Position numbers and translations under genes: made by a program | Shown: positions 17,909-33,219 of the stretch, piece after piece | Position numbering within the stretch: the stretch's first letter is position 1 | Layout: each line of letters opens with the position of its first letter | Notes under the pieces: model-generated | Databases searched by the model: none | What the model was told of the DNA's origin: nothing | Seen by the model: only the letters and a program-made list of their open reading frames with translations | From: a virus | IMG/VR virus record: IMGVR_UViG_3300045988_034541 | Span: 32,511 to 96,510 of that record | DNA length: 64,000 nt | Strand: one strand, 5' to 3'

Positions 17909-17990
17909 CCAATCATTTTAAAGTTTTGTATAGTTTAGGCTTGCCCCAGTCATGTTGTGAAACACACTTGGGCTTTTAATTAATAAGTGT

Positions 17991-18344: not shown

Positions 18345-18480
18345 ATGGAATAAAAATAACTCCTAGGCTATTAAGTCTGTAATGGGTACGCTACTCAATG
18401 TAGCACAGGAAGATACTGATAGCTTTTTTGTTCAGGTTTGAGAGACCTCCTGGCATGAGAGGATAATCATGCCGTTCTAT

Positions 18481-19030: not shown

Positions 19031-19058
19031 CTATTATTAACGTTTAAATATCAATTTT

Positions 19059-19412
19059 ATGGGATTATTTATTATTGCAGTGATTGTTTTACTTATTTGT
19101 GTATGTCTTTCGCGAGTAGGGTCTAAAGACCTAAGAGAAGTTGCAGTGGCAGTTGAGATTGTATTCTCAATAGCAACAGTTGGGGCAGCGATTTCATTAC
19201 CATTCGCTATTACAAGGAATATTCAAATTATTGGCAAGCACGCAGTGCTCAAAGAAACATTGGAGGCTACTGATAGGAAGAATTACTATCTTATATCTAG
19301 TGATGTCTTAAGGCTTAATTATACCATCATGAATCATAGGAACTTTGTAGACAACTTCTGGATTGGGATATGGTATGATAAGGACGTAGCTAAATTGGAA
19401 CTATTAAAATGA
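19059..19412 (+). CDS. membrane protein
   Basis: 117 aa with a hydrophobic N-terminal half. Confidence 0.45.
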   Translation: MGLFIIAVIVLLICVCLSRVGSKDLREVAVAVEIVFSIATVGAAISLPFAITRNIQIIGKHAVLKETLEATDRKNYYLISSDVLRLNYTIMNHRNFVDNFWIGIWYDKDVAKLELLK

Positions 19413-19690
19413 AAGCAAGGTTATTAAAGAAACTTCGCAAGGAGTCAAAGAAGCTGAAATTAATAAGAGGTGAGGATTATCAATACATAGTTACTGATAG
19501 TCCTCATGACATATTAAGACCAAAGCTTGATACTTACTACAGTGGCACATACTACTGTGGTCAAGAATTATTATTTGACGAAGATGTAATTGCATGGTTA
19601 CATCAATGCAGACGTAATTGGATTCTGTCCGAGGTTAAACGAATGCGTGTACATCTGCGTAAATCTCGAATTAGAATATATAAAGAGTAA
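19409..19690 (+). CDS. hypothetical basic protein
   Basis: 93-aa ORF. Confidence 0.45.
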   Translation: MKARLLKKLRKESKKLKLIRGEDYQYIVTDSPHDILRPKLDTYYSGTYYCGQELLFDEDVIAWLHQCRRNWILSEVKRMRVHLRKSRIRIYKE

Positions 19691-19716
19691 TTGTTTCACT
19701 AAAAGTTATTGAAATT

Positions 19717-20214
19717 ATGGGAAAGAGGTCAATATCCGATGATGACATCGTTCGGATTTTTAACACGGTAAAGGCAATGAATCCTGGGCCTTTTAAGATT
19801 ACAGATGTAGTCAGGGATTTAAAGAAGAATGGCTTCCCAAGGCCAGAGAACTTCATGGCTGTTTTGCGTAAGCAGGGAGTGATTGAACCTGACGGTGCTA
19901 TCTATACTAAAGGATTTATGTGGAAAGAACATGGCCCTTTGTATAAGACTAGAGTCATTGAATTGATAACTATCAGCAGGAAAGAAATGGCTAAGATACA
20001 GAGAGATGCATATGCTAAGAGAATGGCTATTAAAGCTGGCACTTACGTAGCACCTCCTAAACCTAAGCCACAAGCTGAAATGGAAGCTGTTACAGAAGCG
20101 GAAGAAGACAAACATCTGATTCCTATTACACAGGCTGAAATGGAAGCAATCAAATTCCTGAAATCGAGAGGTTATAGAATCACTAAATTAATAACAGTTG
20201 AACAGATAGTATGA
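19717..20214 (+). CDS. hypothetical protein
   Basis: 165-aa ORF. Confidence 0.5.
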   Translation: MGKRSISDDDIVRIFNTVKAMNPGPFKITDVVRDLKKNGFPRPENFMAVLRKQGVIEPDGAIYTKGFMWKEHGPLYKTRVIELITISRKEMAKIQRDAYAKRMAIKAGTYVAPPKPKPQAEMEAVTEAEEDKHLIPITQAEMEAIKFLKSRGYRITKLITVEQIV

Positions 20215-20906
20215 AGTTTACAGTACAAGGGAACACGCCATTCAGTGCACACATTTGCCAATATCTATATGATTTGGAAAGCAACTTTGCTAAGGAGAAA
20301 TTATCATTGCCACTTAGTCAGATTATAGCTCATATCTTATATGGGACTAAGAGAATCAGACTTGGTAATGAAGCTATTCCGTCCGAAGCAATCACTATTT
20401 TGGAAGAATGTATTGAAGCCAATCAGCCAATACCAGTCAATTGTATCTTCGGCAGTTCTGAATCGGAGAAAGACTATGTTGACATTGCTGAATTTCAATC
20501 TCTTCAAACGTTGAAGGATATAAGCAGGAGAGTTGCTAAATTCTACTATCCAGGCTTGAACGTAAGACTAGATGTAGTAGGCGATTCAAAATATGTTAGT
20601 AAGGTGATGAGACTAGCAACAGTCCTGGGTGGTTTTACCATAGGCACACACCAATCAGCTATTAACGTATCATTCGCTCACTACCGGCCAGCACACTATT
20701 ATTATAAGTCTATTCCGTCTCGAAACATTCTACGAGGTGGATATGTTCCAGCTTGGGACGGTAGAGGTTATTTATACTTAGAATCCCCACATGATATTGT
20801 GAGTATGATAACTACAGCTGACAATCCTGACATTCTTTCGACGACTGTGGTGTTAGAAGCAAACGAAGAGACGGTAGACCTTCGTGTAGACTATCTAATA
20901 CCGTAA
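20211..20906 (+). CDS. hypothetical protein
   Basis: 231-aa ORF. Confidence 0.5.
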   Translation: MKFTVQGNTPFSAHICQYLYDLESNFAKEKLSLPLSQIIAHILYGTKRIRLGNEAIPSEAITILEECIEANQPIPVNCIFGSSESEKDYVDIAEFQSLQTLKDISRRVAKFYYPGLNVRLDVVGDSKYVSKVMRLATVLGGFTIGTHQSAINVSFAHYRPAHYYYKSIPSRNILRGGYVPAWDGRGYLYLESPHDIVSMITTADNPDILSTTVVLEANEETVDLRVDYLIP

Positions 20907-21286
20907 ATCCACTATTGACGAATGGTGGTAGCAAAACTTGGTCTGAAGAACCAGTAGACATATTCCGGAGTATGTCTATGACTTAAAGGCTATATCAAAG
21001 AGTTGAAACCTGTATCTATTCGAACAGTAGGAGTTCACCTGATTAAGCATCAGAAAACAGTAGTGCAAATCTACTATAGATATTGTGTAAGAGAGAATCT
21101 ACACGGTCTGCATTATATAATCAGCATGCAGATAGGTCACCAAGCAAACCTCTTTCCTGCCTGGTCAAGTGTGCATTACGGTCTGTAAGTGGCGAGCGGG
21201 TTAACGTATGTCCGATTGCCGTAATGCCGCTTGTTTATTGTTTAGAATAAAGAAAGACTCTCATAACAATAAATTTAAACAAAGAG

Positions 21287-22981
21287 ATGGAAATGAAAGG
21301 AGCACAAAGGCCAAGGAGGCCTTACCCTAATGCCGCACGTCAAAGGCGGGATGAGAATAAACCTAAGTTTGTGGATAATAATCAGTTATTCATAGACCAG
21401 TTTGTTAATCTTAAGAAATGTCTTCAGCCACGTACCTACGTGCAAGTGGCTAAAGATATGTATCCTTTATGGAAAGCTAATCCATTACTATGTACTAAGT
21501 TTACTGCATATACGAGAATGATAACTCGTAAATGTAGAATAATTACCCCGGAAGGAGTTATACAACTTGATACACAGCAAGGAGAAGGTTTGAAGAATGA
21601 AGGTATAATGAGAATGTTGTGGTTGGCAATCTATCACAAACCCACATTCCATGCCAACATTGCTTATTTTGCAGCAGCTGGATGCTGGAAAGATTTCATT
21701 ACTATGATGGCTTTAGATGTTCAACTCCATGGCTTTAAGCACAGATTGGATTGGGACTTCTTCAAGAAAGTCATATTCGCAGGTCTTGCCAACGGTCAGA
21801 CATGTGATTTAGTAAAGAAGTATCTTCCTCGTGTTCGTTCCAGTGTTGCATGTAAGACAGATGAGGCAAAAGCACGTAACACAGTAGCCAAATTCTTGGC
21901 GGAAGGCCTTTATGGTAAACCTAAGGATGAAGGAGACTATTCAACCTATCGTAAATATAGGAAGATGAAGAATAGTGGGAAAGCAGCCCAATGGCAGCAG
22001 TTAATCAGTCAAAAGAAATTCTTGGAAATCGATTTTGACACTGTTACTGGAAAGGCGCTGGCACAGCTAGTAGGCTCTAAATTCCTCAAACATCAAGGTC
22101 TTAAAGAGAAGTATCAGAACTGGTTGAAGAACCGTAAGAAGCCCTCTAATAGCGGATTTCTACATACTCTGTTCAAACCATACGGATTGGATAAAATTGC
22201 CGAAGAGATTCCAGAATTTATGGAAACTTCTATTAATGCAAGTTTCAATGTATTTGTTGATAATGCTAAACGCAATAGAGTAGCTCCGTTGTTGGTAGTA
22301 AGAGATATAAGTCATTCTGCTAATGGTGAGATAGAGAATAGCGAAACATCTGCTTACAGTTTGGGTAAAGCATATGCTTTATATCATTCTGAATTACTTC
22401 CTACAATATTCAAGAACTCCTATGCCGTGTTAGAGGATAACATGGTTCTACGTAAGTTCAAAGGTCAGAATGTCATTGAGAAATGGAAATCTGACAAAGA
22501 AGAAGCATTATGCCAGAATCCTTCTATTATTAATATAGCAGAAATGCTGTGTAAAATGAAAGAAGATTATGGTGTGGATGAAGGAGAGTTCCCTAGAGGC
22601 TGTGTGGTAATTACTAACCATACATATTTTACCAAGTTGAACAACCAAGCATTCGTGGAATTTAAGCAAAGACTGCTTAAAGCAAATTTCAGTAAGGAAT
22701 TTGTAAGAGCATTCAAAGTTATCATTTGGAGAGTTCCTTTAGCATATAAGGGAAGACCTAATGTGGCTTTGGTTCCAGGAGTGTCAAATTGCTTCTTAGT
22801 AAATGGACTTAATAATTCAACATCCTCATTTATTACTGGAGAGAAGAGGTTCCAGGTGCCTAAAACCACTAGAGACATCTTTAAGCATGCTATGAATCAA
22901 GAGTTGCTTAATATGATGATTCTAGAGAAGGATGTTGTCAAGAAGAATGCAAGCGTGCAGAAGAAGCCTGTGAAGGTCTAA
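21287..22981 (+). CDS. hypothetical protein (564 aa)
   Basis: Long ORF; no motif recognised. Confidence 0.55.
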   Translation: MEMKGAQRPRRPYPNAARQRRDENKPKFVDNNQLFIDQFVNLKKCLQPRTYVQVAKDMYPLWKANPLLCTKFTAYTRMITRKCRIITPEGVIQLDTQQGEGLKNEGIMRMLWLAIYHKPTFHANIAYFAAAGCWKDFITMMALDVQLHGFKHRLDWDFFKKVIFAGLANGQTCDLVKKYLPRVRSSVACKTDEAKARNTVAKFLAEGLYGKPKDEGDYSTYRKYRKMKNSGKAAQWQQLISQKKFLEIDFDTVTGKALAQLVGSKFLKHQGLKEKYQNWLKNRKKPSNSGFLHTLFKPYGLDKIAEEIPEFMETSINASFNVFVDNAKRNRVAPLLVVRDISHSANGEIENSETSAYSLGKAYALYHSELLPTIFKNSYAVLEDNMVLRKFKGQNVIEKWKSDKEEALCQNPSIINIAEMLCKMKEDYGVDEGEFPRGCVVITNHTYFTKLNNQAFVEFKQRLLKANFSKEFVRAFKVIIWRVPLAYKGRPNVALVPGVSNCFLVNGLNNSTSSFITGEKRFQVPKTTRDIFKHAMNQELLNMMILEKDVVKKNASVQKKPVKV

Positions 22982-23144
22982 GTATTTCGCGCACCGTTTA
23001 TTTAATAGTTGAATTAATGTTCTGATTGGATAGAAGATAGATTTCATTATGCATGGAGAAGAGCGCATATTTGGTATAGTAATCTTTGTGCATATCTAGT
23101 AACACTAGGTGGGAATTTATTGGATGATTCCATAGGGACTGGAT

Positions 23145-23218
23145 AGAGATATAGTTCAGTGGTAGAACAGCTAAAGTCAATCTTTAGAAGAACATCAGTT
23201 CGAATCTGGTTATCTCTA
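23145..23218 (+). tRNA. tRNA, isotype undetermined (irregular anticodon arm; candidate anticodon CAA)
   Basis: Acceptor agagata/tatctct, D-stem gttc/gaac, T-arm atcag-ttcgaat-ctggt. There is an extra nucleotide between the D and anticodon stems. Confidence 0.5.
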
Positions 23219-23468
23219 CACCATTTTATTAATATGATTCTTTCAACATATGCAGTGTCATTTCTATCTCGACTCATAGTCATTATTACGAGTTAAAGTA
23301 TCTGCAATTGTTGAATAACTACTAAGCTCATCGGTTCGAGAGAATATGTGAGCTTAGTTTAATACCGAGCAAACTTCTATCGTATTTAATACATATTAAC
23401 TTTTACATGTGGGGAAGATTCATTACCTTTGCACTCACAATTCACAGTTAATATGGATTGTGTGATTC

Positions 23469-23552
23469 GGGCACGTAACCGGTAATTGGTAGCCGCGTAG
23501 ACTGTAAATCTACTCCTTAATTGGACTGGAGGTTCGAGTCCTCCCGGGCCCA
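23469..23552 (+). tRNA. tRNA-Tyr(GTA), type II
   Basis: Anticodon arm gtaga-ctgtaaa-tctac, 14-nt variable arm, T-arm ggagg-ttcgagt-cctcc, acceptor gggcacg/cgggccc with one A.G mismatch. Confidence 0.7.
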
Positions 23553-23653
23553 CTCACACTGCGATAATTAAATACAATATCTGTTGAGGTCAAACTCGAC
23601 AAACCCTTCTATGGTTCGAGAGAATAGTAGAAGTAAACTGCGGGATTCGTATA

Positions 23654-23992
23654 ATGGTTATTATAACAGCCTTCCAAGCTGAAGATGACAGTTCAATTCT
23701 GTTATCCCGCTCATTATTAATAATAGATGAGATTATGAAAGAGACATCATTTAAGGCAGGTGTTATTGGTGGATTATGTGGAGTATTTACCTTCTTGGCA
23801 TTATTTGCAACCACAAGTAAAGCATCAATTAATGAGTCTGCTGCTACTAATGGAGATTATAAAATCAACAGAGTGCAGTATGAATTTATTAACGAACTAA
23901 CCATTTATAAGGTATCAGGTCCTGGTATTCCAGGTATTAAGTATGTGCTTAGAGATTCCGAGAAAGGTGGTTTATGTGTATTAAATCCATGA
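23654..23992 (+). CDS. membrane protein
   Basis: 112 aa with a TM segment. Confidence 0.4.
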   Translation: MVIITAFQAEDDSSILLSRSLLIIDEIMKETSFKAGVIGGLCGVFTFLALFATTSKASINESAATNGDYKINRVQYEFINELTIYKVSGPGIPGIKYVLRDSEKGGLCVLNP

Positions 23993-24270
23993 GTGAACAC
24001 TGTCTTATTAAGAAGAATACTCCAGAACTTCGTAAGAAACTAGAGGATGCTGGGTTAAGTGTGTGTATATGTACTACATTTGAGGATGCTGATTGGCTTA
24101 GTTGCTGGGGTTCTCATATGTCATATGATGTACATGGTGTGTATCCGGATGACGTGGACGATTTGTCTAAAGAAGCCTATCTGGAGATGTATCTCAAGGA
24201 AACGAATCCGATTATATGTGAATCGGATGATGAGTTTATTAACATGTGTAAACAAATTAAAGGGAAATGA
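23974..24270 (+). CDS. hypothetical protein
   Basis: 98-aa ORF. Confidence 0.4.
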   Translation: MCIKSMSEHCLIKKNTPELRKKLEDAGLSVCICTTFEDADWLSCWGSHMSYDVHGVYPDDVDDLSKEAYLEMYLKETNPIICESDDEFINMCKQIKGK

Positions 24271-24359
24271 TTATGCGGTAGATTACTTACAAGCCACCAT
24301 AAGATAGTTGATTATTAATTAAGGCAATTTATTTATTAACTTATTAACAATTAACTATC

Positions 24360-24698
24360 ATGGCAACAATTAAACAATTTAAACAAGAAATCGCGAATTT
24401 AGTAAAAGCACAGAAAGCAGCTAAGAATATTAATGACTGCTCATCAGTTTATTACAACAGAGGAAGATTACATGCAATGTATGTAGCTTATTACATATTA
24501 AAGCATAAACTAATCGGAGAAGCTATGAATGAGTATCTAGCTAAAGTTATCAAAGAATGGAAATCACTTGAAACTCAAGGTTGGTGTGGTTATTCTAAGA
24601 TGTATAGTGGAGAGAAGTATTTCCGAGAAAGAGTTGATTCACTGATTGATACATATTCTGATGAAGAGATTGTATGTGCTGATAGACCAGAAGCTTGA
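24360..24698 (+). CDS. hypothetical protein
   Basis: 112-aa ORF. Confidence 0.45.
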   Translation: MATIKQFKQEIANLVKAQKAAKNINDCSSVYYNRGRLHAMYVAYYILKHKLIGEAMNEYLAKVIKEWKSLETQGWCGYSKMYSGEKYFRERVDSLIDTYSDEEIVCADRPEA

Positions 24699-24948
24699 TG
24701 CAGTTTATGGTTGTGTACAAGGAGGTCATGCAGTAGCGCAGTGGTTATTAGAACATCCTAAGCAGGATTGGAATAATAACTATTTAATCTACTTATATGC
24801 AGACTTAGACAAATGGAAAGTAAGATTAGACTTAGTAAATAAGGACTATTCTTCATTCTATGAACCAGACCTTGGTAATCAATTAACAGCAATCGCATTA
24901 CAAGATGACGGTCGCATGTTCAAGAAACTTAAATTAGTAAGAGAATGA
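24646..24948 (+). CDS. hypothetical protein
   Basis: 100-aa ORF overlapping the upstream gene end. Confidence 0.4.
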   Translation: MIHILMKRLYVLIDQKLDAVYGCVQGGHAVAQWLLEHPKQDWNNNYLIYLYADLDKWKVRLDLVNKDYSSFYEPDLGNQLTAIALQDDGRMFKKLKLVRE

Positions 24949-25262
24949 TATACAAACGAGATTATTATGTTAGTGTAGGAGATGACCATGTAGTTATCAC
25001 TAAGAACCCTAATCCTCATTTAACCACATTAGAGGATTTAAAAGACCTCAACAAGAGGTATCTTTACAGAGAAGGGCAGAAGATTCTAACTCCTTTTGGC
25101 ATCGAAACCATTAAGGAGATTATTAGAACTCATAGCAAGCAACGTGGCTACGAATGGTTAATCCTTGTAGAAGAGAATGGAAACCAATATACTCCATTTG
25201 AACTAAATGGCATAGTAGTCAAGGAACTTACACTTGAACAGTGGAATCAAATTATCGAATAG
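24945..25262 (+). CDS. hypothetical protein
   Basis: 105-aa ORF. Confidence 0.45.
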   Translation: MIYKRDYYVSVGDDHVVITKNPNPHLTTLEDLKDLNKRYLYREGQKILTPFGIETIKEIIRTHSKQRGYEWLILVEENGNQYTPFELNGIVVKELTLEQWNQIIE

Positions 25263-25299
25263 TTGATGAGTTGTGGGTAATCTCGTAAAACCCTCATTC

Positions 25300-25371
25300 G
25301 CCCCATTACTTCAGTGGTAGAAGAGCAAATTCTAAACTTGTATGGCGTTGGTTCGAGTCCAACATGGGGCA
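25300..25371 (+). tRNA. suppressor tRNA, anticodon CTA (reads UAG)
   Basis: Canonical cloverleaf: acceptor gccccat/atggggc, D-stem cttc/gaag, anticodon arm gcaaa-ttCTAaa-cttgt, T-arm gttgg-ttcgagt-ccaac. Confidence 0.75.
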
Positions 25372-25373
25372 CT

Positions 25374-25452
25374 TGCGGAGGAATGAAACGGATATATAAA
25401 TCATACTAGTCTCATAAGCTAGTTATATTGGGTTCGACTCCCATCTCCGCAA
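25374..25452 (+). tRNA. tRNA-like, anticodon CAT, with an oversized D-loop (possible pseudogene)
   Basis: Acceptor tgcggag/ctccgca, anticodon arm ctagt-ctCATaa-gctag, weak T-stem; the D-loop is 14 nt and contains tatata. Confidence 0.35.
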
Positions 25453-25552
25453 CTACAATCATTGTACATTTGCATTTTCAAAATGTTAAGAAGACAAACA
25501 GCAATTTCCTGTATGTTGGCATAAGTAAATGAATCTATTGTCTTCTGATGAT

Positions 25553-25626
25553 GGGTGTGTAGCTCAGTCGGTTAGAGCACATCTCTGATAAGGATGAGGT
25601 CCCTGGTTCAATTCCAGGCACACCCA
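25553..25626 (+). tRNA. tRNA-Ile(GAT)
   Basis: gggtgtg ta gctc agtcggttagagc a catct-ctGATaa-ggatg aggtc cctgg-ttcaatt-ccagg cacaccc a. Confidence 0.85.
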
Positions 25627-25728
25627 CAATACAACAATTTTCAATAGCTTTGAATAAGAAGTCTTACAGCACGAAAGAAAGTGTTTCATATTTTATGATT
25701 TTAATTAAACTAAGAGACTTCTGTAGTT

Positions 25729-26589
25729 ATGGGTGTAATTCAGTAGGTAGAATGCTAGGTTTGGGAACTAAACTTTAGAGTATAACATATGGATTATACA
25801 AAATCTAAAGGTAACATTACAGAACTAACCTGCCTTATGGGATTCATGTCAATGGGATTTGATTGCTCAATTCCTTATGGTGATTGTGCCAGATATGACA
25901 TGATAGTAGATACTGGCGATGAACTTCTTAGAGTTCAATGCAAGTCTTCAAGTAATCCTATTAAGAATGGAATTAGAGATTTAGATGCATTTCATTTTAG
26001 TACAGTCACACAGACTACCAACACCAAAGAGACAATTCGTAGGAGATACGATGATGAGCAGATAGATTACTTTGCAACCTGTTACGATAACAAGGTTTAC
26101 CTTGTTCCAGTAAGTGAGTGTTCAACTGACAAGACATTAAGACTCAAACCACCTGCTAACAACAGTGGTGCTTATAACAAAGCAGAGGATTACCTGTTAG
26201 AGAACATGCTAGGACATAAAGTATCTAATTCTTTTGTTAGGAGTTCAGAGGAATCTGAGCCTTTACCTAAAGTTTATATCTGTTCTCAGTGTAACACTAA
26301 CAAAGTCTCTAAGGCTAATGGTATATGTGTAGAGTGTGCTACTAAGAATGCACAGAAGGTCGAGAGACCCACAAGAGAGCAACTAAAAGAATTAATTAGA
26401 TTTAAACCATTTACTCAAATTGGAAAGGACTTTGGAGTCTCAGATAACGCTGTTAGAAAGTGGTGTAAGAGCTACAACCTTCCAACCAAAACGTCAGATA
26501 TTAAATCTATTAACTCTAATGATTGGATAAATCTCTAAAGCATTAGTTCCTAGACCTAGTTGTCGCCAGTTCGAGTCTGGCTACCCATA
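25729..26589 (+). tRNA. split tRNA-Pro(TGG): 5' part 25729-25766, 3' part 26555-26589, separated by a 788-bp insertion in the anticodon loop
   Basis: 5' half: atgggtg ta attc-agtaggta-gaat g ctagg tttggga. 3' half: cctag ttgtc gccag-ttcgagt-ctggc tacccat a. Joined they form a perfect cloverleaf with the insertion at position 37/38. Confidence 0.6.
25789..26538 (+). CDS. endonuclease-like protein (PD-(D/E)XK-like N-terminal domain, C-terminal Cys4 zinc finger plus HTH) inside the split tRNA-Pro
   Basis: The N-terminal region contains YDMIVDTGDELLRVQCK (a D...E.K-like motif). The C-terminal part has CSQC...CVEC and an HTH (GVSDNAVRKWCKSYNL) typical of homing-endonuclease DNA-binding modules. 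Confidence 0.55.
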   Translation: MDYTKSKGNITELTCLMGFMSMGFDCSIPYGDCARYDMIVDTGDELLRVQCKSSSNPIKNGIRDLDAFHFSTVTQTTNTKETIRRRYDDEQIDYFATCYDNKVYLVPVSECSTDKTLRLKPPANNSGAYNKAEDYLLENMLGHKVSNSFVRSSEESEPLPKVYICSQCNTNKVSKANGICVECATKNAQKVERPTREQLKELIRFKPFTQIGKDFGVSDNAVRKWCKSYNLPTKTSDIKSINSNDWINL

Positions 26590-26814
26590 CTCCCCGTGGC
26601 ATCCAAGAGAGGATGCTGATAATCCCATAATAGCAAATATGGACAACTACTCAGTTCGTGAGAATAGAGTAGTTTTAATAAGAACCATAATTAACACAAT
26701 AATATATAGTTTCACTAAACAATCATCAAATCAACTCAACAATCAACCCAACAACTTTTAATTTATGATTTGATTAACCTGTTTCATAGTTAAGCCCATA
26801 AGTCGTATTGATAT

Positions 26815-26886
26815 GTGGGCTTGCCCGAGAGGTTTAGGGGCTGGTCCGCAAAACCAGTTAGGACGGTTCGATTCCGTCAGCCCACT
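26815..26886 (+). tRNA. tRNA-Cys(GCA), with C at position 33
   Basis: Acceptor gtgggct/agcccac, anticodon arm ctggt-ccGCAaa-accag, T-arm gacgg-ttcgatt-ccgtc. Confidence 0.65.
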
Positions 26887-26969
26887 CTCGATTTAGTGAA
26901 ACATAAGAAGGCGTACAGCACTAATCATTGTACAGTTTACATGTTTTTGATAACGCGCCTTCTGCGGAT

Positions 26970-27043
26970 GATTCCGTAGCTCAGCTGGTTAGAGCACGAT
27001 ACTTTTAATATCGGGGTCCTGCGTTCGAATCGCAGCGGAGTCA
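26970..27043 (+). tRNA. tRNA-Lys(TTT)
   Basis: gattccg ta gctc agctggtta gagc a cgata-ctTTTaa-tatcg gggtc ctgcg-ttcgaat-cgcag cggagtc a. Confidence 0.85.
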
Positions 27044-27297
27044 CATATGTACTAAGATTGTACATGATGTCAAAGAACGAGTTTAACCACTCAGTCTGTG
27101 AAGATAGAGTGGTTTATTTAGATTACTTATTTATTGACTAAAACTGATGTATTATGAGACTATTTAAGTTAATTAAGAAAGCAGTTCGTTGGTATTTTAG
27201 AATAGCTGCAAATAGCTATGCTTGGACACCAACAGGAGTAGTTCCTTACCATAGGGATTAACTCCGATGCAATCGGGATAGGTCAATTAAACATTAT

Positions 27298-27369
27298 GGC
27301 AAGTTAGCTCAGTGGTAGAGCAGTTGGCTGTTAACCAATTGGTCGCAGGTTCGAGTCCTGCACTTGCCG
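27298..27369 (+). tRNA. tRNA-Asn(GTT)
   Basis: Acceptor ggcaagt/acttgcc, anticodon arm gttgg-ctGTTaa-ccaat, T-arm gcagg-ttcgagt-cctgc. Confidence 0.85.
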
Positions 27370-27483
27370 CATTATTAACATTAAATTATAAGATTATGCA
27401 TAGTTTTGGTGCTTACATTGTGGGAGCTATAGTGCTAGTAGTACTGTATTATATCTTTAAAGATTCCACAATCTAAAATTGAT

Positions 27484-27558
27484 GCGTCCTTAGCTCAATC
27501 GGTAGAGCCCCTGTCTCCAAAACTGGGTGTGTTGCATGTTCGAGTCGTGCAGGGCGTG
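27484..27558 (+). tRNA. tRNA-Trp(CCA)
   Basis: Acceptor gcgtcct/agggcgt (two G.U pairs), anticodon arm cctgt-ctCCAaa-actgg (one mismatch), T-arm gcatg-ttcgagt-cgtgc. Confidence 0.7.
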
Positions 27559-27568
27559 CTTATTAATT

Positions 27569-27654
27569 GGAAGTATGGCAGAGTTGGTCGATTGCACTGG
27601 TCTTGAAAACCAGAGGTCCTTCGGGGTCCGGGGGTTCGAATCCCTCTGCTTCCT
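27569..27654 (+). tRNA. tRNA-Ser(TGA), type II
   Basis: Anticodon arm ctggt-ctTGAaa-accag, 17-nt variable arm, T-arm ggggg-ttcgaat-ccctc. Confidence 0.8.
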
Positions 27655-27673
27655 CAACTAATTTGAATGTACT

Positions 27674-27997
27674 ATGAAGTTTAAAGTGAAATTAAGGAGA
27701 GTGTCTACGTTAAGTAGAAACCAAATTTGTAGAGTGTACGAATCTGGAATGCGAGTAATGGTGAAACGTCCCACATTAGTTAGAGTCCTTCTTAAGGATT
27801 ACAAAACTAAAGAAGATGTTAATGCTTTACTTGAGCAATTAAGCGAAGCAAGTAGAGCCGCTGAACAGGATTTATATGCAGAGTACCCAAAGTTGCCCAG
27901 AAAGGCTAAGAAGGAACTCAAGAAAAGGTTGAATGCAGTCAATAATGCCTATTGTGTTGGTATTACTTTATTGCTGGCTGAATCAGATGGCTTATAA
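27674..27997 (+). CDS. hypothetical protein
   Basis: 107-aa ORF. Confidence 0.45.
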   Translation: MKFKVKLRRVSTLSRNQICRVYESGMRVMVKRPTLVRVLLKDYKTKEDVNALLEQLSEASRAAEQDLYAEYPKLPRKAKKELKKRLNAVNNAYCVGITLLLAESDGL

Positions 27998-28280
27998 ATT
28001 CATACCTACTCGATATGTAGACAATAACTCCAAGTTGTTGGCAAGAATTTACTTAAATAGGCAAAATTCTCGCCGAGTGGTATTACGAGGATACTATGAT
28101 TTTGATAAAGAGAAGTTTTACATTTCATCTATATCAAAGAAGGCTAATACAAGGTCTGTGATGAAGTTCTTACTAAAGACTATAGAATGTAGTAGATTTC
28201 ATTGGGAGTATTCAGGGAACTATGATGATAAGCTCTATCAAGAGTGGTTAAAGGAACATGCAGTATTTAATAGATTGTAA
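27987..28280 (+). CDS. hypothetical protein (track ORF 27933-28280, trimmed to the internal Met)
   Basis: A start at the MAYKF Met avoids a 65-nt overlap with the upstream gene. Confidence 0.4.
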   Translation: MAYKFIPTRYVDNNSKLLARIYLNRQNSRRVVLRGYYDFDKEKFYISSISKKANTRSVMKFLLKTIECSRFHWEYSGNYDDKLYQEWLKEHAVFNRL

Positions 28281-28329
28281 AATTATCGTATGAAAGGAAT
28301 TAATTTAACAGGATTGGACATGAAGAAGT

Positions 28330-28680
28330 TTGTTGGAACCGGCTACAACCCGTCTCAAGACATTATTAACACTAATGGTAGAGACGATGGAAGAACTAAG
28401 AACGGAGAAACTGAAGGATTCACTAATCCAAAGAAACAAAAGGTGGAGGAACCTAAAGAAAGACCAGAAGTATATTACTAGGATTAAACTCCACGCTGCC
28501 TACTGGTATAATCCAGATAAAACGGCAAGAGGTAGACATTGGACAGAATTATATAATTCTAAATATACGTTTGCCTATAAAACAACCAGTACTCCTTGTA
28601 GTTGTCCTATATGTAAAGGAGAACGCTATAATAGGAGACAGTTTAAGAAAGAGACAAGAGAATTACTTAATCTAGAATAA
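28330..28680 (+). CDS. hypothetical basic protein with C-terminal CxC..CPIC motif
   Basis: 116-aa ORF. Confidence 0.45.
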   Translation: MLEPATTRLKTLLTLMVETMEELRTEKLKDSLIQRNKRWRNLKKDQKYITRIKLHAAYWYNPDKTARGRHWTELYNSKYTFAYKTTSTPCSCPICKGERYNRRQFKKETRELLNLE

Positions 28681-28750
28681 CTGAATGGGTAATATAAGAA
28701 GGCATCAGCACTTTTACTGTGTCATGTAGTTCAATTTGCCTTCTGATGAT

Positions 28751-28823
<73 letters not shown>

Positions 28824-28829
28824 CTAATA

Positions 28830-29141
28830 GTGGTTAACATGATTGGGTTCGTAGAGTATTTAATTAGTAAAGGGTATAAACCTTATCGCAAGGTAATGTC
28901 TAAGAAGGGTTCTACATATGTAGAGGATTCTAATATAGGATTTTATTCTTCTATGTCAGAGCATATTGACCTTCGTCTTATTAAAGGTAAGAAGGAAGTA
29001 GTGTATGGATTACATGAGAGAGGACATTCTCCTACTCTTATATATCCTAGACCTAAATGGGTTAAATCTGATGCAGATATGGATAGACTATTTCTGAATT
29101 ATTCATTTGAAGAAATTGCTGAAATGATAGGTTTAAAATAG
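28830..29141 (+). CDS. hypothetical protein
   Basis: 103-aa ORF. Confidence 0.45.
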   Translation: MVNMIGFVEYLISKGYKPYRKVMSKKGSTYVEDSNIGFYSSMSEHIDLRLIKGKKEVVYGLHERGHSPTLIYPRPKWVKSDADMDRLFLNYSFEEIAEMIGLK

Positions 29142-29328
29142 TGCACAATGAGGAGGGTATGCATGTAGAGTTCTATAACATGCTATGGGTTGGAGTCGGA
29201 GACTGACAAGAACAGTTGGGGCATGACTAAGTAATTGTGCATTTTATAGGTTATCAGACCGGTAGGTAACCTTCCGTAATCAGTCGGACGTTGGGAGCTG
29301 ATAGCCCTACGATAGTGTGGCTAAATAT

Positions 29329-29403
29329 GGGCCTGTAGCTCAGATTGGCTAGAGCATCTGCCTTGCACGCAGAGGGTCGTGAGTTCGAGTCTCATCAGGT
29401 CCA
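29329..29403 (+). tRNA. tRNA-Ala(TGC)
   Basis: gggcctg ta gctc agattggctagagc a tctgc-ctTGCac-gcaga gggtc gtgag-ttcgagt-ctcat caggtcc a. Confidence 0.85.
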
Positions 29404-29431
29404 CAGATTGTTGAACTTAAATTGAAAGGTA

Positions 29432-30010
29432 ATGAATCGAGAAGAATTAGAAGATTTGAAAATAACCAAGATTAGTGAAGAGGAATATGAACGCCTTAAA
29501 GATTCAGACGAAGGAGAAGCTATGGAAGTGTCAATTGACTCATTAAAAGCTGAACAAGAGAAGCTAAAAGAGTCAGCATCATTACTTGATGAAGCAAAGA
29601 AGGCATTTTCAGCTTATTGGTTCTTACTGTCCCTCTTTATAGGACAGAATCTATGTTTGGGTGTTGTATTGTGTCAAATCTATTCAGCATGGTCTAAAGG
29701 AGAACCCCTCGGATTTATGGTACTATGTGCCATATCAATAATAGTGGCTGCTTCATATTCATGGAATGCAATAAGACCATATCGAGAACGATATAAGAAC
29801 TATAAACAAGTTCGCACTGCTTATAGTCGTCTGGTTGAAGCTAATAGAGCTGTGTTGGAATTACTAGAATATGTAGAATCCAAGCCCAAAGAAGAAAGAG
29901 CTGAAGAAGCCGAAGAGTTAGCAGAGCCAGTAGTTATGGCTGTAGCTGAACTATTCTTTGCTAGAATGGCATATACTAGGGCACTAAAAGAAGGATTAGA
30001 GTTGCAATAA
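29432..30010 (+). CDS. coiled-coil protein with a central TM segment
   Basis: 192 aa with acidic, coiled-coil-like ends and a hydrophobic core. Confidence 0.5.
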   Translation: MNREELEDLKITKISEEEYERLKDSDEGEAMEVSIDSLKAEQEKLKESASLLDEAKKAFSAYWFLLSLFIGQNLCLGVVLCQIYSAWSKGEPLGFMVLCAISIIVAASYSWNAIRPYRERYKNYKQVRTAYSRLVEANRAVLELLEYVESKPKEERAEEAEELAEPVVMAVAELFFARMAYTRALKEGLELQ

Positions 30011-30018
30011 CTCAATAT

Positions 30019-30092
30019 GGTGGCATTAGCTCAATTGGCAGAGCATTAGGTTGTGGTTCTAAGGGTTACGAGTTCAAGTCTCGTATGTCACC
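30019..30092 (+). tRNA. tRNA-His(GTG) with encoded G-1
   Basis: G-1 pairs with C73; anticodon arm ttagg-ttGTGgt-tctaa; T-arm acgag-ttcaagt-ctcgt. Confidence 0.8.
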
Positions 30093-30391
30093 CAATTCTG
30101 CTGTTTAGGTATAAACGTATCATAAATCTTCCTGTTTGGTTTGACTTATTCAGCAGAGTTATATTTTATCTTGAAACGGAATGCCGAGGATGTGGTTAGG
30201 TGAAAATCCTAAAGTGGAATGTAGGGTACGTTGCGTGACGAAGTAATGGGAGTAGGTGCGATGGCAGCTTAATTAATGTTGAGGCCTCGTTAATATATGT
30301 ATAGCTGTACAGCACCGAAGGATTTAGACTGTCCAAAGCAACTGGCGTAATAAAGCATAAAATCCAGTGAAGACGTATGTGTAGGCAGTAT

Positions 30392-30466
30392 GGGGCGGTA
30401 GCGCAGGTGGTCAGTTCGCGCTGGACTGAAAATCCAGAGATAATGGTTCGACTCCATTTCGTCCCA
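30392..30466 (+). tRNA. tRNA-Phe(GAA), enlarged D-loop
   Basis: Acceptor ggggcgg/tcgtccc (two G.U pairs), anticodon arm ctgga-ctGAAaa-tccag, T-arm aatgg-ttcgact-ccatt. Confidence 0.7.
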
Positions 30467-30495
30467 CTTTAATAGATTAAATAATTATTAGTAAG

Positions 30496-31017
30496 ATGGA
30501 CAATAACTTGTATTATATCTTAGGAGGCATCGCCTATGGTATATTTATCCTACAATTCATAATATCATGGGTTGCTGGGGAGTTCGATGTCGACGTAGAC
30601 TTTGATGGTGATGCTGATTTTGATGTCAGTGATGTTGTATCCTTTAAAGGATTTATCCATTTCTTCATGGGATTCGGAGGATGGACATCTATTAAGCAAT
30701 TATTAGGTTATGAAGTAACCTGGATTGATTGGTTAATAGGATTCTTTATAGGTCTTGTGTTTGTATTTATGCTGTATCATTTATATAAGTTCTGTATGAA
30801 ATTGCAGAACCTTCCTAAAGACGAACCGAAGACTAACTTAGTTGGCAGAACTGCTACTATCTATGTACATTTAGGTGAAGGGCGCCATTTGGCATCCGTG
30901 AACATAAGTGGAGCATTGAGAGAAGTAGAAGTTGTATCTCTTAATAAGAAGATATATCCTGTCAATGAGCCAGTAACGATTCGTAAATACGAAGACAATA
31001 AATTATACATAGATTAA
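30496..31017 (+). CDS. NfeD-like membrane protein (partner of SPFH/flotillin)
   Basis: TM N-terminus, acidic DVDVDFDGDADFDVSD segment and a C-terminal beta-rich domain; sits immediately upstream of the flotillin homolog, as in the yuaF-floT arrangement. Confidence 0.55.
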   Translation: MDNNLYYILGGIAYGIFILQFIISWVAGEFDVDVDFDGDADFDVSDVVSFKGFIHFFMGFGGWTSIKQLLGYEVTWIDWLIGFFIGLVFVFMLYHLYKFCMKLQNLPKDEPKTNLVGRTATIYVHLGEGRHLASVNISGALREVEVVSLNKKIYPVNEPVTIRKYEDNKLYID

Positions 31018-31030
31018 TACCAATTTCAAG

Positions 31031-32992
31031 ATGGAAATGACATCATTAATTATCGTTGGTGTAGTTGTACTAGTTGCAATCATCACTATCATTGGGATTC
31101 TATCCCGCTACCGTAAATGTAAATCTGACGAATTGTTGGTAGTTTATGGTAAAACAGGCTCTCACAAAGAGAAAGTTAGCGAACGCGACGCTAAAGGTAA
31201 TCTGGTTGACAGAGAAGTTGAAATTAAAACTGCCAAAGTTTATCATGGTGGTGCAGCTTTTGTATGGCCGATTATACAGGGTTATGAAGTAATGTCAATG
31301 CAGCCGATTCAATTGAATCTTGTATTGAAGAATGCTTTGTCAGCTCAAAATATTCGTGTAACTATCCCTACCACTGTAACTGTTGCTATTAGCCAAGAAC
31401 CGCTGATTATGCAGAATGCTGCTAATCGCTTACTAGGTGCTGATGATGACGTTAAAGAAAGTTTGATTTCAGATATTGTTTATGGTCAGATGAGGCTTGT
31501 TATTGCTTCGATGACTATTGAAGAGCTTAACTCTGACAGAGACAAGTTCCTAGCTCAAGCTAGAGACAATATCAATACAGAATTGAACAAACTTGGTCTT
31601 TATCTGATGAATATCAATATCAGTGACATTCAAGATGCTGCTCAATATATTGATAATCTTGGTAAGAAAGAAGAGACTAAAGCAAGAGCGCAATCACAAG
31701 CTGATATCGCAGAAGAAGAGAAGAAAGGAGCAATCCAGATAGCTCAAACTACGAGAGAGAAGGAGATTGCAATTGCAGCAGCTACTAAGGAGCAAGAAAC
31801 TATAGTGGCTGAAACTAACAGGGAGAAAGAAGTTGCTATTGCTAAGACCACTAAAGAGAAAGAAACTCAATTGGCCGAGCAGCATAAGGAGCAGCAAATT
31901 GCTGTTGCAGAGCAAAGAAAGGAACGTGAAATTGGTGTGGCTACAGCCCAAACTGAAGAAGCATCCAAAGTTGCCGAGCAAGAAGCATTAAGAGCTGCTA
32001 AGATTGCAGAGCAGCAAGCTTATGCAACTGCTAAAGAAGCAGAATTTACTGCCAAAGCTGAAGCCGCTAAGGCAGAAGCAGAAGCAGAGAAGGAAGTTCG
32101 TATGGCAGTAGCAGCACAAAACCAAGAAGCTGAAACTGTTAAAGCACAACAGGAAAAGGAAGCTAAAACTGCACAGTATGAATCAGAAGCCCGTCAAAAG
32201 GCAGCTGAAGCAGAGAAAGCAGCAGGAGTAGCTGAACAGAAAGCTACTATTGAAGTTTCCAAAGCTAAGGGAGAAGCAGAGAAAGCTAAAGCTGAAGCAG
32301 AAAGAGTAGCTGGTACTTCTAAAGTTGAAGCTCAAATGGCAGTTGCTAAAACAGAGCAAGAACGTCAGGTGGAAGTTAACGAAGCTAAAGCTAAAGCTGA
32401 AGAAGCTAAGCTTAAAGCTGAAGTAATTATACCTGCCGAGAAAGCCAAAGAGAAAGCTAAAATTGAAGCAGAAGCTGTTAAGAGTGTAGCCATTCTTGAA
32501 GCAGAAGCGGAAGCAGCTAAAATCTTGAAAGCAGCAGAAGCTAAAGCAAATGCTACTAAGATGCAACTGGAAGCAGAAGCTGAAGGTACCAAGAAGAAAC
32601 TTCTTGCTGAAGCTGAAGGTAAGAAAGCATCTTTAATGGCAGAAGCTGAACAGAAACAGGCAATGGAAATGGCTCCGGCTCTTGCAGTTGAACATATGAT
32701 TAAATCAGGTATGCATCCTGAAGCAATCGTTCAATATGCAATGACCGACAGGTGGAAAGAAGTTGCTGAAGCCAACGCTAAGGTGTTTGAACATATCCAG
32801 CTTGGTAATGTTACTGTGTATGGTGACTCCAATACTGCTGGGCAGTTCATGGCTAATATGGCTAAGAATCTTGCTCCTAGCTTGGAAATTGCTCGCAATT
32901 TGCCCATTGCAGATTCGCTTAAGCAAATAATCACTGGCAAGAAGCCGGAAGAATCACCAGCTAAAGGTGATGAATTTCCTCCTGTAAAGTAA
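31031..32992 (+). CDS. flotillin-like SPFH (band-7) domain protein
   Basis: N-terminal TM helix, then a band-7/SPFH core, then a roughly 300-aa Ala/Glu/Lys-rich EA-repeat coiled coil, then a conserved C-terminus; this is the flotillin (FloT/YuaG-like) architecture. Confidence 0.75.
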   Translation: MEMTSLIIVGVVVLVAIITIIGILSRYRKCKSDELLVVYGKTGSHKEKVSERDAKGNLVDREVEIKTAKVYHGGAAFVWPIIQGYEVMSMQPIQLNLVLKNALSAQNIRVTIPTTVTVAISQEPLIMQNAANRLLGADDDVKESLISDIVYGQMRLVIASMTIEELNSDRDKFLAQARDNINTELNKLGLYLMNINISDIQDAAQYIDNLGKKEETKARAQSQADIAEEEKKGAIQIAQTTREKEIAIAAATKEQETIVAETNREKEVAIAKTTKEKETQLAEQHKEQQIAVAEQRKEREIGVATAQTEEASKVAEQEALRAAKIAEQQAYATAKEAEFTAKAEAAKAEAEAEKEVRMAVAAQNQEAETVKAQQEKEAKTAQYESEARQKAAEAEKAAGVAEQKATIEVSKAKGEAEKAKAEAERVAGTSKVEAQMAVAKTEQERQVEVNEAKAKAEEAKLKAEVIIPAEKAKEKAKIEAEAVKSVAILEAEAEAAKILKAAEAKANATKMQLEAEAEGTKKKLLAEAEGKKASLMAEAEQKQAMEMAPALAVEHMIKSGMHPEAIVQYAMTDRWKEVAEANAKVFEHIQLGNVTVYGDSNTAGQFMANMAKNLAPSLEIARNLPIADSLKQIITGKKPEESPAKGDEFPPVK

Positions 32993-33167: not shown

Positions 33168-33219
33168 CGCTGGCTAATAAGAGTTTGCGAAAATCATTAT
33201 TAACCTAATTATTAGAATT

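What the first reader, a model, noticed from the sequence alone, without database searches (positions are those of the whole stretch)
25300..25371. Amber-suppressor tRNA (anticodon CUA) although genes in this window show no TAG recoding
The cloverleaf is clean and the anticodon loop reads ttCTAaa. Long ORFs here (1004 aa, 670 aa, 653 aa) are intact under the standard code and I saw no same-frame ORF pairs split by a single TAG, so the suppressor is not obviously needed for the genes visible here. It may serve recoded late genes elsewhere in the genome, act on host stop codons, or counter a host nonsense-based defence.
Basis: partly seen in the sequence, partly recalled or inferred. Interest (0 to 1): 0.6.

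Follow-up and report, generated by a model that had tools for sequence, protein, structure and literature searches.

The report
Conserved amber-suppressor tRNA, standard-code gut phage
A real, evolutionarily conserved tRNA that should read the stop codon UAG sits in the tRNA array of a ~185 kb human-gut phage that itself uses the ordinary genetic code, although more distant relatives read UAG as glutamine; this "suppressor without recoding" state has been reported before in phages, but here it is unusually stable.

Summary
Window 25300-25371 (+) is a bona fide tRNA (Rfam 62.7 bits; ARAGORN) with anticodon CUA at 25332-25334. Nothing in the window is TAG-recoded.

I rebuilt the rest of the genome from near-identical public contigs (composite 185,442 bp, 91% coding in the standard code). 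Capsid, portal, terminase and the giant late ORFs are intact. Contigs carrying this exact tRNA have no in-frame TAG in real genes. "Recoded late genes elsewhere" is therefore refuted.

The tRNA is not a decaying gene.
- Four alleles occur in 79 public contigs, all with CUA.
- Eight of 22 pairs show two-sided compensatory changes, including the tertiary 19-56 pair.

Distant relatives (43-54% protein identity) are TAG-to-Gln recoded, but they use different, Gln-like CUA tRNAs. This tRNA is not Gln-like (G1-C72, A73). It most resembles the phage's own tRNA-Arg, and pair 31-39 is never formed, leaving a 4-bp stem and 9-nt loop.

Best reading: a maintained, probably weak amber suppressor in a standard-code phage. 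Its selective benefit is unproven. Verdict: a new member of a known kind, of moderate interest.

The parts
25300..25371 (+). tRNA with anticodon CUA (amber-suppressor type), 72 nt up to discriminator A73. CCA is not encoded.
   Evidence: ARAGORN. Rfam tRNA 62.7 bits. The identical sequence is in 16 IMG/VR and 39 gut-metagenome contigs. 8 of 22 pairs show compensatory changes among alleles.
25332..25334 (+). Anticodon CTA (positions 34-36), in loop T32 T33 CTA A37 A38.
   Evidence: Sequence and cmscan alignment. It is invariant in all 79 contigs found with the anticodon left free in the search pattern.
25329..25337 (+). Effective 9-nt anticodon loop. Pair 31-39 is A.C here and is never a standard pair in any allele (A.C, C.C, A.C).
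   Evidence: cmscan marks the non-pair. Pair count shows 0 of 3 alleles paired at columns 30/38. The MFE fold of the L210 allele gives a 4-bp stem and 9-nt loop.
17840..52847 (+). The dispersed tRNA array to which the suppressor belongs. ARAGORN makes 28 calls in the window, 27 of them on the + strand within this span. The suppressor always lies between tRNA-Gly(tcc) and tRNA-Ile(gat).
   Evidence: Synteny in relatives L210, L211, L214 and L217.
25374..25455 (+). Neighbouring degenerate tRNA(CAT)-like element directly 3' of the suppressor. This is context, not part of the suppressor.
   Evidence: Rfam tRNA 20.8 bits, below threshold. A canonical tRNA-Met(cat) sits at the same place in relative L004.
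25789..26538 (+). PD-(D/E)XK endonuclease gene (homing-endonuclease-like) in the tRNA array. This is context.
   Evidence: Pfam PDDEXK_5, E=5.8e-20. It has a patchy distribution among relatives.

Best explanation
The element is a functional phage tRNA with anticodon CUA. It is co-expressed with the phage's roughly 27 other tRNAs and decodes UAG, so it is an amber suppressor. The phage otherwise uses the standard code.

Shown:
- It is a real tRNA kept under purifying selection for the L-shape and for the CUA anticodon, in at least three diverged standard-code lineages.
- The genome has no TAG-interrupted genes.
- TAG is still used as a stop by about 11% of genes, all outside the late block.

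Inferred:
- A host synthetase charges it. Its features are G1-C72, C2-G71, A73, U35, no long variable arm and no A20. These, together with its resemblance to the phage tRNA-Arg(UCU), argue against Gln-type identity. From E. coli work on Arg-, Thr- and Val-derived CUA tRNAs, Lys (or Gln) is the most likely residue.
- The permanently unpaired 31-39 position (and C33 in one clade) probably makes it a weak suppressor. The cell would then tolerate low-level UAG readthrough, which adds 1-27 residues to TAG-terminated early and middle proteins.
- Late genes, which end in TAA or TGA, would be untouched.

The benefit is therefore not decoding of recoded genes. The most likely benefit is general: buffering of amber mutations in the very large late ORFs and/or readthrough of host UAG stops. 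This is the 'suppressor present, code still standard' state from which TAG-to-amino-acid recoding arose in other members of the same phage family.
For: - Real tRNA.
- Conservation: the same tRNA lies between tRNA-Gly and tRNA-Ile in lineages whose SPFH protein is 69-75% and whose SLT protein is 57-82% identical to the window.
- Covariation: 8 of 22 pairs have two-sided changes, including tertiary G19-C56 to A19-U56. None of 500 shuffles reached this.
- Anticodon: a search with the anticodon left free found 79 contigs and four alleles, all CTA.
- Not bacterial: no match in 185,579 bacterial and archaeal genomes.
- Standard code, window.
- Standard code, composite genome: 185,442 bp, 91% coding.
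- Standard code, late genes: intact.
- Standard code, suppressor-bearing contigs: no in-frame TAG.
- Family context: relatives L071, L074 and L311, and L005, L006 and L009, are TAG-recoded. TAG aligns with Gln in 47 of 114 positions. Borges et al. propose suppressor acquisition before recoding (10.1101/2021.08.26.457843).
- Not Gln-type: acceptor and discriminator compared with the phage's own tRNAs. The nearest sense tRNAs are tRNA-Arg(tct/acg), at 0.69-0.74 identity against a mean of 0.57 and sd of 0.05.
Against: - No expression, charging or readthrough data exist.
- TAG stops are not depleted genome-wide: 25 of 222 ORFs use TAG. Their absence from late genes is not TAG-specific, because TGA is also rare there (TAG vs TGA p=0.29).
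- TAG-terminated genes have no nearby back-up stops. The median extension is 9 codons, against 4-5 for TAA and TGA. The genome therefore shows no visible adaptation to its own suppressor.
- Nonsense polymorphisms among relatives are not enriched for TAG: one TAG, but also TAA cases.
- The unpaired 31-39 position and C33 in one clade could mean poor or altered decoding.
Confidence: 0.6

Rival explanations
1. The tRNA serves TAG-recoded (code 15) late, structural or lysis genes located outside the window, as in crAss-like, Lak and other recoded gut phages.
For: More distant members of the same family are TAG-to-Gln recoded in the terminase, portal, SLT and tail genes, and they carry CUA tRNAs.
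Against: - The whole composite genome is 91% coding in the standard code.
- Capsid, portal, TerL and ORFs of up to 2967 aa are uninterrupted.
- Two single contigs carrying the identical tRNA were sampled over about 91 and 116 kb without any in-frame TAG in real genes.
- The only apparent in-frame TAGs lie upstream of the true start of ORF 27933-28280 or in doubtful ORFs.
Confidence: 0.03
2. Programmed readthrough of one specific gene. The tRNA would make a C-terminally extended or fused protein. The candidate is the 164-aa ORF ending in TAG that lies in frame with, and 12 nt upstream of, the ORF at window 10-501.
For: The ORF1-TAG-ORF2 same-frame arrangement, with no other stop between, is present in nearly all close relatives. 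It is the only TAG whose readthrough would give a long product.
Against: - ORF2 has its own ATG.
- A shared frame has a one-in-three chance of occurring.
- One close relative (L034) breaks the shared frame.
- The gene pair is absent from the 57-75% clades that still keep the orthologous tRNA.
- No other TAG stop has a conserved extension, and TAG stops turn over between clades.
Confidence: 0.07
3. The tRNA does not act as an amber suppressor in translation. It may be a decoy or substitute in the conflict with tRNA-targeting host nucleases. Alternatively it may decode something other than UAG because of its 9-nt loop or a C34 modification. Examples are the UCU/CCU triplet at 33-35 inherited from a tRNA-Arg ancestor, or lysidine-type C34 reading UAA.
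For: - It resembles the phage tRNA-Arg(UCU), including the rare A19-U56 pair and the acceptor strand GCTCCA.
- The loop strings are shifted by one base relative to tRNA-Arg (TTCTAA). The clade difference UU to CC changes UCU to CCU, which are both Arg anticodons.
- Pair 31-39 is never formed.
- The genome carries tRNA-repair genes: HAD_SAK_2+YqeY, PNKP-like, a ligase and a CCA-adding enzyme.
Against: - In the canonical 7-nt frame the loop has U33, CUA, A37 and A38, which is the classic efficient amber context.
- CUAAAC is invariant in all alleles.
- A20, the main ArgRS determinant, is missing.
- There is no direct evidence for any nuclease or modification.
Confidence: 0.12
4. The tRNA is a neutral relic: a former sense tRNA or former recoding tRNA that is drifting, with no present function.
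For: No target genes were found. The anticodon stem is weak. U33 is lost in one clade and in two low-coverage contigs.
Against: - There is about 30% sequence divergence between alleles, yet 95% of cells remain paired, 8 pairs are compensated, and the anticodon is unchanged in 79 contigs.
- Each allele is identical across many contigs whose flanking genes differ.
Confidence: 0.06

Closest known systems
Suppressor tRNA(CUA) of TAG-to-Gln recoded (code 15) gut phages such as crAss-like, Lak and others (Borges et al., 10.1101/2021.08.26.457843; Peters et al., PMC9523058)
   Same: It is a phage-encoded CUA tRNA in a human-gut phage, with a probable Bacteroidota host because there are no SD motifs. 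It sits among other phage tRNAs in the standard-code early region. Members of the same family are recoded.
   Different: This genome has no in-frame TAG. The tRNA body is not Gln-like (G1-C72, C2-G71, C3-G70, C10-G25), whereas the recoded relatives' CUA tRNAs share U1 and the D-arm with the phage tRNA-Gln. The anticodon stem has an unpaired 31-39 position. No release factor or synthetase was found.
Standard-code phages that carry a suppressor tRNA: the Agate phage with a TGA suppressor (Borges et al.) and Stenotrophomonas phage Summit, 'target genes not identified' (PMC9022506)
   Same: The genome uses the standard code, carries a suppressor tRNA, has no identifiable target genes, and has recoded relatives.
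   Different: The stop codon concerned is TAG, not TGA. The nearest recoded relatives are distant (43-54% protein identity), not >80% ANI. The suppressor is retained across several diverged standard-code lineages, so it does not look like a short-lived intermediate. TAG stops are not depleted overall (11%).
Laboratory amber suppressors of E. coli (supE, supF, and the synthetic CUA series of Normanly, Kleina, Abelson and Miller 1990; cited from my own knowledge)
   Same: It has a CUA anticodon with the U33 / A37 A38 context and relies on host synthetases. In E. coli, Arg-, Thr- and Val-derived CUA tRNAs are charged mainly with Lys, and others with Gln.
   Different: It is a natural, phage-borne gene. 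It is not one mutation away from any sense tRNA found: a pattern search with the anticodon free gave only CUA. Its host is a different phylum, so the E. coli identity rules are only a lead.
tRNA-Pyl (ARAGORN's label)
   Same: Only the CUA anticodon.
   Different: It has a canonical G18G19/T-loop, a 5-nt variable loop, a 7-nt D-loop and a 4-5 bp anticodon stem. tRNA-Pyl has a 6-bp anticodon stem, a 3-nt variable loop and a tiny D-loop, and lacks the GG/TΨC motifs.
tRNAs with 4-bp anticodon stems that read stop codons (Blastocrithidia-type tRNA-Trp; PMC13092985)
   Same: The anticodon stem is effectively shortened to 4 bp in a tRNA connected with stop-codon decoding.
   Different: In those tRNAs the top pair (27-43) is unpinned and the anticodon is near-cognate. 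Here the bottom pair (31-39) is open and the anticodon is fully cognate to UAG.

Membership tests
Canonical elongator tRNA (Rfam RF00005) | Cloverleaf with a 7-bp acceptor stem, D, anticodon and T arms, scoring above the family threshold | tested here: met
   62.7 bits against a gathering score of 29. ARAGORN also calls it.
Canonical elongator tRNA (Rfam RF00005) | Elbow contacts G18G19 with the T-loop | tested here: met
   The window has GG and TTCGAGT. The other alleles change G19-C56 to A19-U56 together.
Canonical elongator tRNA (Rfam RF00005) | 5-bp anticodon stem closing a 7-nt loop with U33 | tested here: not met
   Pair 31-39 is A.C, C.C or A.C in the three main alleles. U33 is present in the window allele but is C in the L210 allele and in two metagenome contigs.
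Amber suppressor tRNA | Anticodon CUA at positions 34-36 | tested here: met
   It is invariant in 79 contigs.
Amber suppressor tRNA | Inserts an amino acid at UAG in vivo | not testable with these tools
   This needs a reporter assay or proteomics in the unknown host.
Code-15 (TAG-to-Gln) phage recoding system | In-frame TAG codons in phage genes, especially structural and lysis genes | tested here: not met
   Window. Composite genome. Suppressor-bearing contigs. Recoded relatives, as a positive control, show 11-52 in-frame TAGs in the same tests.
Code-15 (TAG-to-Gln) phage recoding system | Gln-type suppressor tRNA | tested here: not met
   G1-C72/A73 and a C10-G25 D-stem contrast with U1-A72 and the TGGTGTAGTGGTAG D-arm of the phage tRNA-Gln and of the relatives' suppressors. 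Isotype-model scoring (tRNAscan-SE) was not available.
Code-15 (TAG-to-Gln) phage recoding system | Accessory code-change genes (RF2, aminoacyl-tRNA synthetase), present in some members only | tested here: inconclusive
   No RF or aaRS family appears among the 25 best Pfam families of the 126 early and middle proteins scanned. Only the top 25 of 51 families were shown, and late proteins were not scanned.
Standard-code 'pre-recoding' phage with suppressor tRNA (Borges model) | Standard-code genome with low GC and relatives recoded for the same codon | tested here: met
   GC is 37.6%. Standard code. TAG-recoded relatives.
Standard-code 'pre-recoding' phage with suppressor tRNA (Borges model) | Depletion of the target stop codon | tested here: inconclusive
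   TAG is the rarest stop (25 of 222 ORFs, against TGA 48 and TAA 149) and is absent from 45 late genes. However, the late-gene bias is towards TAA in general (TAG vs TGA p=0.29).
tRNA-Pyl | 6-bp anticodon stem, 3-nt variable loop, short D-loop, no G18G19/TΨC, and pyl genes nearby | tested here: not met
   The structure is canonical type I. No Pyl-related Pfam family was seen.

The most novel reading that the evidence does not exclude
A deliberately weak amber suppressor, with an open 31-39 position, an Arg-like body and non-Gln identity, has been kept by selection for a long time in standard-code phages because UAG readthrough itself is useful. Possible uses are crippling or re-timing host (or rival-phage) proteins that end in TAG, or letting these mosaic phages use gene modules exchanged with their TAG-recoded relatives. 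It would then not be merely a stepping stone to recoding.
Probability: 0.15. Interest if true: 0.7.

Novelty: new member of a known kind. Interest (0 to 1): 0.4.

Why it matters
Phage stop-codon recoding is thought to begin with a suppressor tRNA arising in a standard-code genome, but examples of that state are few, and the cited example involves TGA.

This family offers, within one syntenic ~185 kb genome type, three things side by side:
- standard-code lineages that have stably kept a CUA tRNA;
- lineages fully recoded TAG-to-Gln, using different CUA tRNAs;
- a possible TGA-recoded relative.

That makes the order of events, and the cost or benefit of a suppressor before recoding, directly testable. 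The unusual anticodon arm also suggests a natural way of tuning suppressor strength. If none of this holds up experimentally, the finding is one more phage suppressor tRNA without identified targets.

Tried and rejected
- **tRNA-Pyl.** This is ARAGORN's default label and does not fit the structure.
- **Recoded genes elsewhere.** I rebuilt the genome and found none.
- **In-frame TAG in the ORF 27933-28280 orthologues of several relatives.** It lies in the first 15 codons, which overlap the preceding gene, upstream of the likely true start at M19. Similar cases in ORFs 23654 and 45656 are doubtful N-termini or doubtful ORFs.
- **ORF1-TAG-ORF2 fusion at the window start.** It is not conserved beyond the close clade.
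- **Back-up stops after TAG, or long conserved extensions.** Neither was found.
- **TAG-specific avoidance in late genes.** It cannot be separated from the general TAA preference.
- **Excess of amber over ochre or opal nonsense polymorphisms among relatives.** Only isolated cases of each type were seen.
- **Orthology with the suppressors of recoded relatives.** The sequences are unrelated.
- **Sense-anticodon siblings that would reveal the isotype.** None were found in IMG/VR or in gut metagenomes, and nothing matched in bacterial genomes.
- **Phage-encoded synthetase or release factor.** None was seen. The YqeY hit is part of a HAD_SAK_2 RNA-repair protein, not a Gln-specific factor.
- **Theta/HDV-like ribozyme next to the tRNA.** There was no Rfam match at E<=1 in 25250-25650.
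- **Sigma-70 promoter and terminator scan around the tRNA.** The result was at background level and is uninformative for a probable Bacteroidota host.
- **DatZ/MazZ partners for the PurA/PurZ-like gene.** None was found next to it.

Full report
**1. The observation**

ARAGORN finds 28 tRNA genes in the window. One lies at 25300-25372 (+) with anticodon cta. Rfam's tRNA model matches 25300-25371 at 62.7 bits against a gathering score of 29. The loop reads T32 T33 C34 T35 A36 A37 A38, with the anticodon at 25332-25334. The acceptor stem has seven Watson-Crick pairs (G1-C72, C2-G71, C3-G70 and onward), the discriminator is A73, and CCA is not encoded.

The cloverleaf has one blemish. Pair 31-39 is A.C.

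- Removing TAG from the stop set lengthens ORFs no more than removing TGA or TAA.
- TAG terminates 16 of 105 candidate ORFs, including the 1004-aa gene.
- No plausible gene is split by a TAG.

**2. What the window is**

The window is the early/middle region of a large phage. It contains:
- a dispersed tRNA array;
- a tmRNA (18481-19033) and a RAGATH-34 RNA;
- an SLT-domain 1004-aa protein, an SPFH protein, an AAA ATPase, helicases and a PurA-like enzyme.

Genes lack Shine-Dalgarno motifs (7.7% against 10% background). This is typical of phages of Bacteroidota.

**3. The rest of the genome**

The 1004-aa protein led to GenBank MT835470, a 117 kb human faecal scaffold. Its 3' end overlaps window 1-2470 at 97.6%. 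Its 5' end is joined to the window's end by an 8.3 kb stretch present in IMG/VR contigs that carry the identical tRNA.

The composite is 185,442 bp. This matches the many 174-190 kb contigs of the family, one of which (185,190 bp) wraps around. It is 91% coding in the standard code.

The 78 kb late block on the minus strand encodes the major head protein, portal, large terminase, tail fibres and ORFs of up to 2967 aa, all uninterrupted.

Contigs with the exact tRNA were checked directly:
- The 2912-aa stretch of the giant ORF used as query is 99-100% identical to MT835470.
- There is no in-frame TAG in about 9,500 aligned residues per contig around the giant ORF.
- There is none in about 7,000 residues around the capsid and tail genes.
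- There is none in the terminase, portal and SLT region.
- There is none in the tRNA region, apart from artefacts upstream of true starts.

Two single suppressor-bearing contigs were sampled over about 91 and 116 kb in this way. The idea that the tRNA serves recoded late genes elsewhere is therefore refuted.

**4. Relatives that are recoded**

The same tests act as positive controls. More distant relatives (43-54% identity) have many in-frame TAGs and essentially no in-frame TGA or TAA:
- L071 has 43 and L074 has 52, in terminase, portal, SLT and other genes.
- L311 has 11.
- L005, L006 and L009 gain far more ORF coverage from TAG readthrough than from TGA readthrough.

TAG aligns with Gln in 47 of 114 cases, which indicates code 15. 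These phages carry CUA tRNAs of their own. In L071 and L074, one of the two shares U1 and the D-arm with the phage tRNA-Gln. None of them resembles the window's tRNA.

**5. The tRNA is maintained by selection**

A CUA tRNA sits at the same place, between tRNA-Gly(tcc) and tRNA-Ile(gat), in lineages whose SPFH protein is only 69-75% identical. These lineages are also standard-code in every region sampled.

Three alleles differ at about 30% of positions, yet 95% of pair cells stay paired. Eight of 22 pairs changed on both sides:
- 3-70;
- 10-25;
- two pairs in the anticodon stem;
- three pairs in the T stem;
- the tertiary G19-C56 to A19-U56 pair.

No shuffle reached these values, and slid registers give none.

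A pattern keeping only the invariant positions, with the anticodon left free, found 25 IMG/VR and 54 gut-metagenome contigs. These carry four alleles, every one with CTA. The pattern found nothing in 185,579 bacterial and archaeal genomes.

**6. What kind of tRNA it is**

It is not tRNA-Pyl, because the structure is canonical type I.

It is not Gln-like. The 1-72 pair is a strong G-C, and the D-stem is unlike the phage tRNA-Gln.

Its nearest sense relatives are the phage's own tRNA-Arg(tct/acg), at 0.69-0.74 identity against a mean of 0.57 and sd of 0.05. A tRNA-Gln of a distant relative scores 0.75. With tRNA-Arg(tct) it shares the acceptor strand GCTCCA and the rare A19-U56 pair. However, it lacks A20 and C35, the ArgRS determinants.

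From E. coli work that I recall, not tested here, CUA derivatives of Arg, Thr and Val tRNAs are charged mainly by LysRS and others by GlnRS. U35 plus A73 fits LysRS. The inserted residue is thus unresolved, and Lys or Gln are the leading guesses.

Pair 31-39 is never formed in any allele (A.C, C.C, A.C). The L210 allele has C32 C33, and two low-coverage metagenome contigs carry U33C on the window allele. The suppressors of L005, L007 and L009 have canonical CU-CUA-AA anticodon loops. I infer that this tRNA is a weaker suppressor.

**7. Does the genome show adaptation to its suppressor?**

Hardly.
- TAG ends 25 of 222 ORFs, all outside the late block. The late block uses 41 TAA and 4 TGA. The bias is towards TAA in general (TAG vs non-TAG p=0.003; TAG vs TGA p=0.29).
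- Readthrough of TAG would add 1-27 residues (median 9). There is no enrichment of back-up stops.
- TAG stops turn over among clades. They are conserved at the PurA-like gene and at ORF 33618-34511, but neither has a meaningful extension.
- The only long readthrough product would fuse a 164-aa ORF just upstream of the window with ORF 10-501. That pair is missing from the other clades that keep the tRNA.
- Nonsense polymorphisms among relatives include one TAG (Tyr to TAG in a 1554-aa late protein) and also TAA cases.
- No synthetase or release factor was detected. The genome does encode a CCA-adding enzyme and tRNA-repair proteins.

**8. Interpretation**

The best-supported reading is a functional, probably low-efficiency amber suppressor kept in a standard-code phage. 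The phage belongs to a family in which TAG recoding has arisen with other tRNAs.

This corresponds to the 'suppressor before recoding' state proposed by Borges et al.. It also resembles isolated reports of phage suppressors without targets (PMC9022506). What is less expected is its persistence across diverged standard-code lineages, its non-Gln body and its open 31-39 pair.

The selective benefit is inferred, not shown. Candidates are buffering of amber mutations, readthrough of host stops, and compatibility with recoded relatives. Rival readings (specific programmed readthrough, non-translational or altered decoding, neutral relic) are less likely, for the reasons given under each.

**9. Verdict**

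Its one testable branch is refuted. This is a new member of a known kind, of moderate interest.

Noticed in passing
window 18481-19033 (+): A phage-encoded tmRNA (Rfam RF00023, 83.4 bits). It spans 553 nt against a 374-position model, and one alignment gap holds 191 nt where the model has 35. ARAGORN did not call it. By eye, the tag frame probably ends ...EVRMAA followed by UAA.
   Followed up: partly
window 20909-21016 (+): A full-length RAGATH-34 RNA (119 bits against a gathering score of 60.7), lying between protein genes upstream of the tRNA array.
   Followed up: no
window 25374-25455 (+): Directly after the suppressor lies a tRNA(CAT)-like element with a good acceptor, anticodon and T arm but an AT-rich, aberrant D region (Rfam 20.8 bits, not called by ARAGORN). 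A 98%-related phage (L004 9595-9666) has a canonical tRNA-Met(cat) at the same spot. The two differ at many positions, so this looks like an allelic replacement.
   Followed up: partly
window 37579-38646 (+): A short (355 aa) adenylosuccinate-synthetase homologue. Its size and phage context recall PurZ of 2-aminoadenine (Z-genome) phages. No DatZ- or MazZ-like neighbour was detected by Pfam. Its TAG stop is conserved in all four diverged relatives examined.
   Followed up: partly
MT835470 29901-30803 (= L001) and elsewhere in the early region of the composite genome: A tRNA/RNA-repair toolkit: a HAD_SAK_2+YqeY fusion protein, a PNKP-type phosphatase, an ATP-dependent ligase domain and a CCA-adding-enzyme head domain. 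This suggests conflict with host tRNA nucleases.
   Followed up: partly
L071, L074, L311, L158, L005, L006, L009; L156: Distant relatives of the same phage family are TAG-to-Gln recoded (11-52 in-frame TAGs in terminase, portal, SLT and tail genes). L071 and L074 each carry two CUA tRNAs just downstream of the SLT module. One distant locus (L156) instead shows 16 in-frame TGA.
   Followed up: partly
MT835470 112596-113645, running into window 10-501: A 164-aa ORF ends in TAG 12 nt before, and in frame with, the 180-aa ORF that starts the window. The arrangement is conserved among close relatives but absent from other clades.
   Followed up: yes
L106, about position 5365 (IMG/VR 3300045988_045053); L046 10670: Isolated nonsense polymorphisms sit inside otherwise 96-100% conserved large genes. 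One is a Tyr-to-TAG change in the 1554-aa late protein of one contig. Another is a Leu-to-TAA change in the SLT protein of a suppressor-bearing contig.
   Followed up: partly
window 33080-33183 and 35304-35387: ARAGORN calls tRNA-Ser(gct) on the + strand and an overlapping tRNA-Arg(tcg) on the - strand; the latter is probably a mirror artefact. tRNA-Thr(tgt) is 84 nt long, with an insertion in the variable region that is unusual for this isotype.
   Followed up: no
L291-L310 versus L282-L290: The genomes are strongly mosaic. The 672-aa tail-fibre-like late protein is only 63-67% identical in contigs whose giant ORF is 99-100% identical. The SLT protein ranges from 79 to 99% identity. This implies frequent module exchange within the family.
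   Followed up: no
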